DNA of 64,000 nt from Rhina ancylostomus. Its lineage: Eukaryota. Of the stretch, positions 45,101 through 48,100 are shown one piece after another (position 1 is the first letter of the stretch; the number at the start of each line of letters is the position of its first letter). Position numbers: made by a program. The stretch covers positions 34,794,833 to 34,858,832 of the forward strand of contig JARFYF010000118.1 of the NCBI GenBank assembly GCA_030265395.1. The letters run 5' to 3'.

Positions 45101-48100
45101 TAATCGTCAACGACGAGGAGGCAGCGCACTCGGAGGACTTCCCTGAGGCTTCCCCCGCCAGTAGCCCAAGTGATCAAGTGGAGAGCGAGGCTGGTGAGGA
45201 CAATGGTCCACTAGAAGGGAACGACTGCTCTGAGCTAAAGAATACTGAGCAAGACGAGCCGATGGAGGTGGACACATCCACTGACAAAGGCTACCAAAAT
45301 CAAGGGTCCACCGGCACTGCTACTTTGCTACCTCAGATATCTGATTCATCTTCTATGACCAATTATAACATGCCAAACACTAATGTGACTTTAGAGACCT
45401 TGCAGAGCACTAAGGTGGCAGTAGCACAGTTTTCCCAGGACACCCGATCTAACAGCCCCACTTCAAGTCATACAATACCCACCATGGCTATTCCTATGAT
45501 CCTGGAGCAGTTGGTGGCTCTGCAGCAGCAACAGCTGCACCAGTTGCAACTGATCGAACAAATCCGCAACCAGGTAGCGATGATGAACCCGCAGTCACTG
45601 CACCCACTAAACCCCTCTGCACCCTCCCAAGGTACTCCAGTATCTGCTGCTAGCCAGCATGCTTCCTTCAGCGAGCATCCTTCCAACCCCTTGTCAGGTG
45701 TTATCTCAGCTTCCAGCACAGTGCAGGCACCCAATGTCCACACTTCAGCTTTTGATGGCTCCCAGCAGATCACTCAGCCCGCCTCTGGGGCTAGCACTCC
45801 TGTTTTACCCAGTAGTGCGTCACCAAGATTGGAATCCACTTTGCCTCCGTCCACAAGTGGAATTGCATCTTCCCTGACTCCAAGTTCCAGTTCAAACACA
45901 AATAACACTTCCTCTCAGTTGCAGTATTCGACTTCGTCACTTGCACACGGTAGTCTCCTCAGTCCAGCTTCCAGCATGCCTAATCCACTGCTACCTCAGA
46001 ATTCCTCAAGTGGTGTGATCTTCCCAAACCCCTTGGTCAGCATTGCTGCCACAACCAATGCTCTGGACCCACTGGCTGCCCTAATGAAGCATCGCAAAGG
46101 GAAACCACCCAATGTCTCTGTGTTCGACCCTAAAACAAGTTCAGAAGATCCATTTTTCAAGCATAAGTGTAGGTTTTGTGCTAAGGTCTTCGGAAGTGAC
46201 AGTGCATTACAGATTCACCTTCGTTCTCACACTGGAGAAAGACCATTCAAGTGTAATATTTGCGGAAATCGGTTTTCCACCAAAGGTAATCTCAAGGTAC
46301 ACTTCCAGAGGCATAAAGAAAAATACCCTCATATCCAGATGAATCCATATCCAGTTCCTGAATACCTGGATAATGTACCTACTAGCACTGGTATTCCATA
46401 TGGGATGTCCTTGCCACCTGAAAAACCAGTGACAACCTGGCTGGACACCAAGCCTGTGCTGTCAACCATACCAACATCAGTTGGATTACAGTTGCCTCCA
46501 ACTCTATCAAGTATTACCAGTGAATCACCAGCGGTGACTCCTTTAAGCAGGTCACCCCAAAGACCATCACCTCCATCAAGTGAATGTGCTTCTCTGTCAC
46601 CAAACATGAACAAGAATGATTCCAGTATTCCAATAACCGCAGAGTCTCCGCAGTCAATTACTGGTGGTAATATTGTTTCAATGGTCCAAGGTTCGAATGT
46701 ACCTGCTTCAGGTTTCAAGACAGTAGAAAGTTGTGCATCTGGGCAGTCAGTTTCATCAGCTGCGTGCTCCACCACGTTCACTACATGTGCAGAGAGCGGA
46801 GTGAACAGCGTTCCCACGACCCTTCCCAGTCCTCTGCTCCCCATCATATCTGATCAGTTCAAGGCAAAATTTCCCTTTGGCGGCCTGTTGGATTCTATGC
46901 AAACATCTGAGACCTCAAAGCTGCAGCAGCTGGTGGAGAACATCGACAAAAAGATGACGGACCCCAACCAGTGTGTCATCTGTCACCGTGTACTCAGTTG
47001 TCAGAGTGCTCTGAAGATGCATTACCGCACGCACACAGGCGAGAGGCCGTTTAAATGCAAGATATGTGGGCGTGCTTTTACCACCAAGGGGAACTTAAAG
47101 ACACACTTTGGAGTTCACCGTGCAAAGCCGCCTCTTCGAGTACAGCACTCTTGTCCCATTTGCCAGAAGAAATTCACAAATGCCGTAGTTTTACAGCAAC
47201 ATATTCGCATGCATATGGGAGGCCAGATTCCCAACACTCCATTGCCAGAGGGCTTCTCAGACAGCCTGGACAGAGACTTAACCTGTGATGAAATGAACGC
47301 AGAACTAATGAGCAACTACCCTGACGATGAATTGATGGATGAAAATTCAGTGGACGAGGAGGCAGAATTAAACATTGCCTCAACGGAGTCTTCGAAACAG
47401 TTGTTATGCTATTCTGGCTCGTCACCCAACTCACCGCCTTCGGTGATATCCAACATTGCCGCACTGGAGAATCAGATGAAGATAATAGATTGTGCTCTGG
47501 GCACACAGCAGCGATCCAGTGTGAAATCTGTTGAAAACGGATCCATGGAAAGCGATCGCTTAACAAATGACTCTTCCTCTGCTGTGGGTGATCTGGAAAG
47601 TCAAAGTGCTGGTAGCCCCGCACTGTCAGAGTGCTCTTCCTCGATGCAGGCATTGTCACCCGCACCCAGCAACGCTGGGAGTCAAAGGTCAAAGTCACCA
47701 AGCTTTGGCAACCACGAGGAGCCACATGAGACTCCGGTGAAATTAGAAAAAGTGGACAGTCCATCAACTCATCGGGAGACTGGAGGTGCACTTGATCTGA
47801 CAGCCAACAACCTGACCCGGCCGATCATCAAAGAAGAGGCTTTTAGTATGCTGTTCCCCAACCAAGAATGTGGTAAGTTGAAAAGTACTGTTTGTAGTAT
47901 CTGTGGGAAACCTTTTGCTTGTAAAAGTGCGTTGGAAATTCACTACCGCAGCCATACTAAAGAGCGTCCATTCCTTTGCACAATCTGCAATCGTGGTTGC
48001 TCCACTATGGGTAATTTAAAACAGCACTTACTGACTCACAAGATGAAAGAACTTCCTTCTCAGTTATTTGAACCCAACTCCACTCTAGGTCCCACCCAAA

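What the first reader, a model, noticed from the sequence alone, without database searches (positions are those of the whole stretch)
47873..48088. In-frame exitron that switches zinc-finger cluster 3 on or off
Seen: inside the open reading frame of exon 2 there is a consensus donor (TG|GTAAGT, 47873), a branch-like TACTGAC (~48029-48035) and an acceptor (ctctag|GT, 48088). They are 216 nt apart and both phase 1, so splicing re-forms a Gly codon and deletes both fingers of cluster 3 (CSIC...HLLTH, ~47893-48039) without touching other fingers. That gives 1329-aa versus 1257-aa proteins. Established: mammalian SALL3 has isoforms with and without this finger pair, and SALL4 lacks cluster 3. Inference: the dual coding/intron role predates the split between cartilaginous and bony fishes, and the extra SALL4 intron may be this exitron made constitutive.
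Basis: partly seen in the sequence, partly recalled or inferred. Interest (0 to 1): 0.72.

Follow-up and report, generated by a model that had tools for sequence, protein, structure and literature searches.

The report
Optional intron inside SALL3 coding exon
A 216-base stretch inside the large coding exon of a ray's SALL3 gene can be read as protein or spliced out, removing one pair of zinc fingers, and public gene annotations already record the same switch in sharks, rays, birds, reptiles and mammals.

Summary
GTAAGT starts at 47873, AG ends at 48088, the interval is 216 nt, and both ends are phase 1. Removing it rebuilds a Gly codon and deletes exactly the two fingers of zinc-finger cluster 3.

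The gene is the SALL3 orthologue of a batoid; the closest named protein is from Hypanus sabinus.

Window-only statistics are weak. The donor plus AG arise at these sites in 131 of 5000 synonymous shuffles.

The decisive evidence is comparative. Of 183 named SALL3 proteins, 86 carry exactly this 72-residue deletion with the same junction, 96 retain the segment and 1 is unresolved. The 86 come from 12 cartilaginous fishes, bichir, gar, turtles, squamates, birds, marsupials and an elephant.

The exitron reading and its pre-gnathostome-split age are therefore supported, but the isoform is already in public annotation.

The proposed branch site is doubtful because three AGs lie between it and the acceptor. 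The idea that SALL4 intron 2 descends from this exitron could not be tested. No RNA data for this species were available.

The parts
644..719 (+). SALL3 coding exon 1 (MSRRKQAKPQHLKSDEEAVPIVSQN plus 1 nt), followed by donor T|GTAAGT, phase 1
   Evidence: motif; tblastn of named SALL3 proteins, residues 1-25 at 644-718; site context
44948..48429 (+). SALL3 large coding exon 2, with acceptor TTATAG| upstream and donor AAG|GTAAGA downstream. It encodes the C2HC finger, the Q-rich region, zinc-finger clusters 1-3 and the first one and a half fingers of cluster 4
47873..48088 (+). The exitron: 216 nt, GT..AG, phase 1 at both ends, no in-frame stop. It encodes the 72 residues KLKSTVC..NSTLG
   Evidence: the same deletion is present in 86 named orthologous proteins
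47873..47878 (+). 5' splice site GTAAGT, formed by codons G|GT AAG T(TG) = Gly-Lys-Leu. This is the only GTAAGT in exon 2
   Evidence: orthologues read G-K-F (72), G-K-C (21) or G-K-L (3) here
47893..47955 (+). Cluster 3, finger 1 ([21 protein letters not shown])
47977..48039 (+). Cluster 3, finger 2 ([21 protein letters not shown])
48029..48035 (+). It is present, but three AGs follow it before the acceptor, so its use is doubtful
   Evidence: the doubt is inference from the usual AG-free zone between branch point and 3' splice site (general knowledge)
48052..48063 (+). Pyrimidine run CTTCCTTCTC followed by CAG (codons of LPSQ). This is a possible competing acceptor that would give a 191-nt, frame-shifting excision
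   Evidence: sequence; its use was not tested
48064..48088 (+). Last 25 nt of the exitron, AG-free until the acceptor TAG|G. Weak branch-like sites lie near A48071-72 and A48077, and 13 of the 19 bases before the AG are pyrimidines
   Evidence: sequence read directly; the branch assignment is inference
57002..57433 (+). SALL3 coding exon 3 ([10 protein letters not shown]...EIGIN plus stop), completing finger 2 of cluster 4

Best explanation
The window carries the SALL3 gene of a ray. Inside its large coding exon, 47873-48088 is a conserved alternative intron, an exitron of 216 nt (3 x 72).

When it is retained, the mRNA encodes a 1329-residue SALL3 with four zinc-finger clusters. When the spliceosome uses GTAAGT at 47873 and the AG at 48087-88, a Gly codon is rebuilt and the reading frame is kept. 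The 1257-residue product then lacks only cluster 3. It keeps the N-terminal MSRRKQAKPQH motif, the Q-rich region, clusters 1 and 2, and the AT-rich-DNA-binding cluster 4.

The same nucleotides therefore serve as finger codons and as splice signals.

Shown: the sites, the frame, and the same junction in annotated isoforms across jawed vertebrates.

Inferred: that this species splices it, which branch point is used, and that the two isoforms differ in DNA or chromatin targeting.
For: Sites and frame:
-.

Gene identity:
- The 102 named of the 120 listed hits are SALL3 or SALL3-like. The best are Rhinoraja longicauda X1 and Carcharodon.
- Hypanus sabinus is 95.6% identical over exon 2.

Junction form in other species:
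- 5 of the 120 hits listed carry it, as do all 81 new hits (80 by script, the 81st).
- Overall 86 of 183 named proteins carry it, 96 retain the segment and 1 is unresolved.
- It is seen in 12 chondrichthyan species: 6 rays or skates, 5 sharks and Callorhinchus.
- It is also seen in Polypterus, Lepisosteus, turtles, squamates, birds (one cluster of 633 member sequences), Monodelphis, Sarcophilus and Elephas.

Both forms in one genome:
- They differ by exactly 72 residues on one contig in Rhinoraja, Podarcis muralis and Carettochelys.

Conserved geometry:
- The G-to-G distance is 72 residues in 84 of 84 resolved retained forms.
- The donor tripeptide is GKF, GKC or GKL in 96 of 96. F and C codons always begin with T, and the window's Leu codon here is TTG, so these residues are compatible with GTAAGT.
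- The acceptor dipeptide is LG in 83 and PG in 1; 12 were not resolved by the pattern.

Retained form is under protein-level constraint:
- The 72 residues are identical 72/72 in Rhinoraja and Carcharodon and 65-66/72 in tetrapods and lobe-fins.
- The flanking 72-residue windows score 39-44/72 and 51-57/72 in the same species.

Composition:
- Exitron GC is 0.407, against 0.493 and 0.522 for the rest of exon 2 and 0.403 and 0.368 for the true introns.

Print:
- PMC5892016 (passages) says chick and mouse Sall3 lack this cluster (their 'ZF4') and mentions alternative splicing in the region.
Against: - There is no transcript evidence for this species or from any tool here. The isoforms are database models. 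Many bird entries probably come from homology projection, so the 86 are not independent observations.
- The Callorhinchus entry is flagged LOW QUALITY PROTEIN.
- Window-only statistics are modest: donor plus AG arise in 131 of 5000 synonymous shuffles, and at least one GTAAGT arises in the exon in 2440 of 5000.
- The acceptor is weak, and a CAG preceded by a 10-nt pyrimidine run lies 25 nt upstream (48062-63). That site would give a frame-shifting 191-nt excision.
- TACTGAC is followed by three AGs.
- No unusual RNA structure links the sites (z = -0.71).
- Synonymous-site conservation could not be tested because no vertebrate DNA collection was on hand.
Confidence: 0.88

Rival explanations
1. 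The segment is ordinary, constitutively retained coding sequence in this species. The GT..AG pair is tolerated by chance or is a relic, and splicing happens only in other lineages or not at a meaningful level.
For: Donor plus AG arise in 131 of 5000 synonymous shuffles, and at least one GTAAGT arises in the exon in 2440 of 5000. The acceptor is weak and faces an upstream competing CAG. The 72 residues are extremely conserved as protein. No RNA data were available.
Against: The identical junction is annotated in 6 other rays and skates, including the closest named relative Hypanus sabinus, and in 5 sharks and a chimaera. The window keeps every site and the exact 216-nt length.
Confidence: 0.07
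2. The short isoforms are an annotation artefact. One cloned cDNA or one early model lacking the cluster was projected across genomes, and canonical GT/AG happened to allow it, so the apparent breadth overstates real splicing.
For: Many short bird entries are 'partial' or come from bulk annotation projects. Callorhinchus is flagged LOW QUALITY. A gar entry is named Sal-like protein 1 by its source.
Against: RefSeq lists short and long forms side by side as numbered isoforms on the same contig in Rhinoraja, Podarcis muralis and Carettochelys. From my own knowledge, not checked here, NCBI's pipeline adds alternative isoforms only with transcript support. Projection would still need GT and AG to be kept at both positions in every one of those genomes. 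PMC5892016 reports chick and mouse Sall3 sequences without this cluster.
Confidence: 0.05

Closest known systems
Annotated SALL3 isoforms lacking zinc-finger cluster 3 in other jawed vertebrates (e.g. Hypanus sabinus X2, Amblyraja radiata X2, Chiloscyllium punctatum X7, Corvus hawaiiensis X1, Elephas maximus X2)
   Same: Same gene, same junction (..E[C/R]G|P.Q..) and the same 72-residue deletion. The length pair 1329/1257 is identical to Rhinoraja longicauda X1/X5.
   Different: Only the species differs. The window's protein is 95.6% identical to Hypanus over exon 2. No transcript data for the window's species were seen.
SALL4A / SALL4B internal splicing of exon 2
   Same: Same gene family. 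A splice event inside the large exon 2 removes whole zinc-finger clusters in frame. [quoted passage not shown]
   Different: It removes clusters 1-2 rather than cluster 3. From recall, it uses an internal donor joined to the next exon rather than a self-contained intron within the exon. I did not verify this here.
Exitrons (exonic introns; class defined by Marquez et al. 2015, recalled, not read here)
   Same: It lies wholly inside a protein-coding exon, has canonical GT-AG, has a length divisible by three, has no stop codon, encodes protein when retained, and has a weak 3' site.
   Different: From recall, exitrons are described as more GC-rich than ordinary introns. Here the GC (0.407) is as low as the gene's true introns and below the surrounding exon. 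It removes a complete folded domain pair, whereas from recall many exitrons fall in disordered regions.
Alternatively spliced zinc-finger modules in other transcription factors (Drosophila CF2, Gogos et al. 1992; Xenopus Xsal-1, Hollemann et al. 1996)
   Same: Splicing changes the number of C2H2 fingers, and so presumably DNA recognition. I saw both papers only as entries in reference lists. That Xsal-1 transcripts vary in the number of double fingers is my recollection.
   Different: These are different genes or organisms. Whether the Xsal-1 event is this same junction was not checked, because the paper is not held.

Membership tests
Exitron (in-frame, EIx3 type) | Lies entirely within one annotated protein-coding exon | tested here: met
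   The ORF runs unbroken from 44851 to 48444. Named full-length SALL3 proteins align colinearly over 44950-48432.
Exitron (in-frame, EIx3 type) | Canonical splice sites, a length divisible by three and no in-frame stop | tested here: met
   GTAAGT at 47873, AG at 48087-88, 216 nt, 72 sense codons.
Exitron (in-frame, EIx3 type) | Both retained and spliced mRNAs exist | tested here: inconclusive
   Both forms are annotated in relatives: 96 retained and 86 spliced of 183 named proteins, with three same-contig pairs differing by 72 residues. No transcript data for this species were available, and models are not reads.
SALL3 orthologue | Best named matches are SALL3, not SALL1, SALL2 or SALL4 | tested here: met
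   The named hits among the 120 listed are sal-like protein 3 or unnamed or hypothetical entries that UniRef labels Sal-like protein 3, at 71-96% identity over residues 850-1197.
SALL3 orthologue | Architecture: N-terminal MSRRKQ.KPQH motif, four zinc-finger clusters, three coding exons, and the last intron splitting finger 2 of cluster 4 | tested here: met
   The four-cluster architecture of SALL1 and SALL3 is stated in PMC9672407.
U2-type GT-AG intron | Strong 5' splice site | tested here: met
   GTG|GTAAGT: all six intron positions match the GTRAGT consensus (the consensus is from general knowledge).
U2-type GT-AG intron | Branch point with an AG-free stretch and a pyrimidine tract before the acceptor | tested here: inconclusive
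   TACTGAC at 48029-35 is followed by AGs at 48041-42, 48048-49 and 48062-63. The last 25 nt are AG-free but hold only 4-of-5 matches to yUnAy. 13 of the 19 bases before the AG are pyrimidines.
Homologue of SALL4 intron 2 | Same position and phase as SALL4 intron 2 in an alignment of the two genes | not testable with these tools
   No SALL4 genomic sequence or vertebrate DNA collection was on hand. The papers reached say only that SALL4 has four exons (PMC9951407) and lacks ZFC3. Searches gave no intron position.

The most novel reading that the evidence does not exclude
The exitron may be older than the vertebrate SALL paralogues. On this reading SALL4's extra intron 2 is the same intron, fixed as constitutive once cluster 3 was no longer needed as protein. 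A second part of the reading concerns the very conserved non-finger tail of the segment ([11 protein letters not shown][F/S]TLG) and the G-K-[L/F/C] start. These would be held by splice-signal constraints (pyrimidine tract, branch point, T at +6) as much as by protein function, making this a 450-million-year example of dual coding and splicing constraint inside a DNA-binding domain.
Probability: 0.3. Interest if true: 0.5.

Novelty: already known. Interest (0 to 1): 0.25.

Why it matters

Biologically, it means SALL3 exists in a four-cluster form and a three-cluster form throughout jawed vertebrates. Cluster 3 is almost invariant as protein: 72/72 between ray and shark and 65-66/72 between ray and tetrapods or lobe-fins. 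Yet it is optional in the mRNA. In humans it shows no missense depletion (VdVp 1.29; PMC9838217).

What cluster 3 binds, and when it is included, appears to be uncharacterised in the papers I could reach. Because the isoform is already in RefSeq and UniProt for dozens of species, the window itself adds one more species rather than a new phenomenon.

Tried and rejected
Analyses that added nothing:
- RNA structure bringing the splice sites together: 256 nt folded, z = -0.71, with 40 of 200 shuffles folding at least as well. Rejected.
- Antisense genes: ORFs 47174-47824(-) and 48178-48435(-) have no Pfam match. Rejected.
- Rfam over the whole window: 0 matches at gathering score.
- PDB: the 73-residue peptide matches generic C2H2 pairs and SALL4 and SALL3 cluster chains (E about 1e-13 to 4e-18). 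This gave nothing specific to cluster 3.

Literature on the SALL3 isoform:
- Search searches found no open paper that describes this isoform in title or abstract, and none that links 'exitron' with a SALL gene. The 11 papers were judged from the listing only.
- PMC3233386 and PMC6877779 say nothing on isoforms.

Position of SALL4 intron 2:
- Searches gave no coordinates.
- Look-ups were not held.

Script failures:
- My first scripts for the retained forms used patterns that were too strict. One search missed 21 mammals and one search missed all retained forms. One search replaced them.

Steps deliberately not run:
- I did not run a third large protein search for SALL1 or SALL4. SALL3 orthologues would fill the 120 rows shown, and a protein cannot reveal an intron position.

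Full report
**What is at the coordinates**

One search shows GTAAGT at 47873-47878 preceded by TG, TACTGAC at 48029-48035, and CTCTAG ending at 48088 followed by GT. The interval 47873-48088 is 216 nt. It lies inside one long open frame, 44851-48444 on the + strand.

In that frame, 47872 and 48088 are first codon positions. Both boundaries are therefore phase 1, and G(47872) plus GT(48089-90) rebuilds GGT (Gly). The 72 residues removed (KLKSTVC...EPNSTLG, residues 1009-1080 of the ORF translation) contain two C2H2 fingers, at 47893-47955 and 47977-48039, and nothing else.

Pfam sees only C2H2 finger families in the exon. Against the PDB, the 73-residue peptide matches generic finger pairs and SALL4 and SALL3 cluster chains at E about 1e-13 to 4e-18.

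**The gene**

The exon 2 translation, searched on its own over residues 850-1197, returned SALL3. Of 3178 proteins with E <= 1e-10, the best 120 were listed. The best were Rhinoraja longicauda isoform X1 and Carcharodon carcharias at 95-96% identity.

Mapping three named SALL3 proteins back on the window and reading the site contexts gives three coding exons:
- 644-719, ending T|GTAAGT, phase 1.
- 44948-48429, from TTATAG| to AAG|GTAAGA.
- 57002-57430 plus stop.

The Hypanus sabinus protein is 95.6% identical over exon 2, 100% over exon 1 and 99.3% over exon 3. The window is therefore from a ray related to, but not the same as, Hypanus. Nothing suggests human sequence.

The lengths come from arithmetic: 76 + 3482 + 429 = 3987 nt = 1329 codons, and 1257 without the 72.

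**Is it more than chance?**

From the window alone, only mildly:
- GTAAGT occurs once in the 3482-nt exon.
- Shuffling synonymous codons within the exon gives at least one GTAAGT in 2440 of 5000 trials.
- The donor arises at this very site in 403 of 5000 trials, and the donor together with the AG in 131 of 5000.
- The exitron's GC (0.407) is lower than the rest of exon 2 (0.493 upstream, 0.522 downstream). It is close to the true introns (0.403 and 0.368).

**Comparative evidence**

Five of the 120 hits listed aligned over only 47% of the query. Their sequences read ...[15 protein letters not shown]..., which is exactly the predicted junction. They are Rhinoraja longicauda X5, Leucoraja erinacea 3b X2, Amblyraja radiata X2, Hypanus sabinus X2 and Narcine bancroftii X3.

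I then searched with one of these public proteins (P0107, residues 965-1040, spanning the junction). That search found 284 proteins at E <= 0.001 and listed 120, of which 81 were new. All 81 lack the cluster and share the junction: 80 by script and the 81st, Polypterus, by alignment.

Over all 183 named proteins held, after excluding the 18 unnamed ones:
- 86 have the junction form.
- 96 retain the segment.
- 1 (P0045, a partial entry) is unresolved.

The junction form occurs in these groups:
- 6 rays or skates.
- 5 sharks: two Chiloscyllium species, Heptranchias, Heterodontus and Mustelus.
- The chimaera Callorhinchus (flagged LOW QUALITY PROTEIN).
- Polypterus and Lepisosteus.
- Turtles, many squamates and many birds (one cluster stands for 633 member sequences).
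- Monodelphis, Sarcophilus and Elephas.

Three species show both forms on one contig, differing by exactly 72 residues:
- Rhinoraja longicauda: 1329 / 1257.
- Podarcis muralis: 1335 / 1263.
- Carettochelys insculpta: 1333 / 1261.

**Signature in the retained forms**

In the 96 retained proteins:
- The residues over the donor are GKF (72), GKC (21) or GKL (3). F and C codons always begin with T, and Leu can (the window uses TTG). The variation is thus compatible with keeping G|GT AAG T, although only DNA can prove it.
- Over the acceptor the residues are LG (83) or PG (1). My pattern did not resolve the other 12.
- The Gly-to-Gly distance is 72 residues in 84 of 84 resolved cases.

The 72 residues are the best conserved part of the neighbourhood:
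- They are 72/72 identical to Rhinoraja and Carcharodon, 65-66/72 to lobe-fins, frogs, alligator, crane, turtle and a marsupial, and 53-61/72 to placentals.
- In the non-chondrichthyan species the flanking 72-residue windows score 39-44/72 upstream and 48-57/72 downstream.

The retained form is therefore under strong protein-level selection. This is not a decaying intron.

**How it most likely works**

Shown:
- A perfect intron-side donor (GTAAGT).
- A weak acceptor (TAG|G, with 13 of the 19 preceding bases pyrimidine), compared with the gene's constitutive acceptors.
- In-frame geometry.

Inferred:
- The weak 3' site makes removal optional.
- The products differ only in cluster 3.

Cluster 4 is the AT-rich-DNA reader in SALL3 and SALL4 (PMC9672407, passages) and is untouched. 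Cluster 3 keeps the GNLK signature of the other clusters but has E where cluster 4 has Q in SALxIH, so a different or modulating DNA contact is plausible. That is inference.

PMC9838217 (passages) reports no missense depletion for human SALL3 ZFC3 (VdVp 1.29), which fits an optional module. I did not see its supplementary figure.

- TACTGAC matches a branch consensus, but AGs at 48041-42, 48048-49 and 48062-63 lie between it and the acceptor. By the usual AG-free rule (general knowledge), the working branch point is more likely in 48064-48080. Only 4-of-5 matches exist there, around A48071-72 and A48077.
- The CAG at 48062-63 follows a 10-nt pyrimidine run. It would give a 191-nt, frame-shifting excision. 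Whether it is used is unknown.
- No RNA structure stands out (z = -0.71).

**Claims about the family**

- 'SALL4 lacks cluster 3' is in print.
- That SALL4 has four exons is in print (PMC9951407).
- I found no printed position or phase for SALL4 intron 2 (four look-ups were not held).
- No vertebrate genomic collection was available.
- The proposal that SALL4 intron 2 is this exitron made constitutive therefore stays open. So does the synonymous-site test and the question of whether SALL1 shares the event.

**Prior knowledge**

- The isoform is in RefSeq and UniProt for dozens of species.
- PMC5892016 (passages) notes that chick and mouse Sall3 lack this cluster and that alternative splicing occurs in the region. 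I could not see its supplementary alignments, which would show which accessions were used.
- From memory only, the 1996 Xsal-1 paper reported splice variants with different numbers of double fingers. I saw it only in a reference list.
- My searches found no open paper that calls this an exitron or studies the two isoforms' functions.

**Verdict**

The feature is already known at the level of public annotation. Interest is low to moderate.

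Noticed in passing
window 50530-50755 (+), inside intron 2: This stretch resembles the alternative C-terminal tail of Rhinoraja longicauda SALL3 isoform X4 (P0003, 1261 aa). That isoform replaces exon 3 and would truncate cluster 4. In the window the similarity (52% and 64%) is split over two reading frames and a stop comes early, so the tail is not conserved as one ORF.
   Followed up: partly
window 48052-48063: A pyrimidine run CTTCCTTCTC plus CAG (codons of LPSQ) looks like a better 3' splice site than the annotated one 25 nt downstream. 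Using it would excise 191 nt and shift the frame.
   Followed up: partly
window 47873-48088 versus the rest of exon 2: The exitron has intron-like base composition: GC 0.407 against 0.493 and 0.522 in the flanking exon, and 0.403 and 0.368 in introns 1 and 2.
   Followed up: yes
window 16260-16676 (+), intron 1: A 138-aa open frame ends ...RVQRRFTSTLLGWEHFSYGERLDRLGLFSLE. From memory it resembles the C-terminal part of LINE reverse transcriptases, so it is probably a decayed retroelement. It was not searched.
   Followed up: no
window 20142 (+) and 27930 (-), intron 1: Two isolated C2H2-like patterns lie in intronic frames with stops nearby. They are probably chance or repeat-derived.
   Followed up: no
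17 runs of N, e.g. 51184-51371 (188 nt), with six runs of exactly 100 nt: These are gaps or masked stretches in introns 1 and 2 and after the gene. None touches a coding exon of SALL3. They were left as they are.
   Followed up: no
P0201: A Lepisosteus oculatus protein that its source names 'Sal-like protein 1' has SALL3-type flanks and the SALL3 junction form. The name may be a mislabel.
   Followed up: partly
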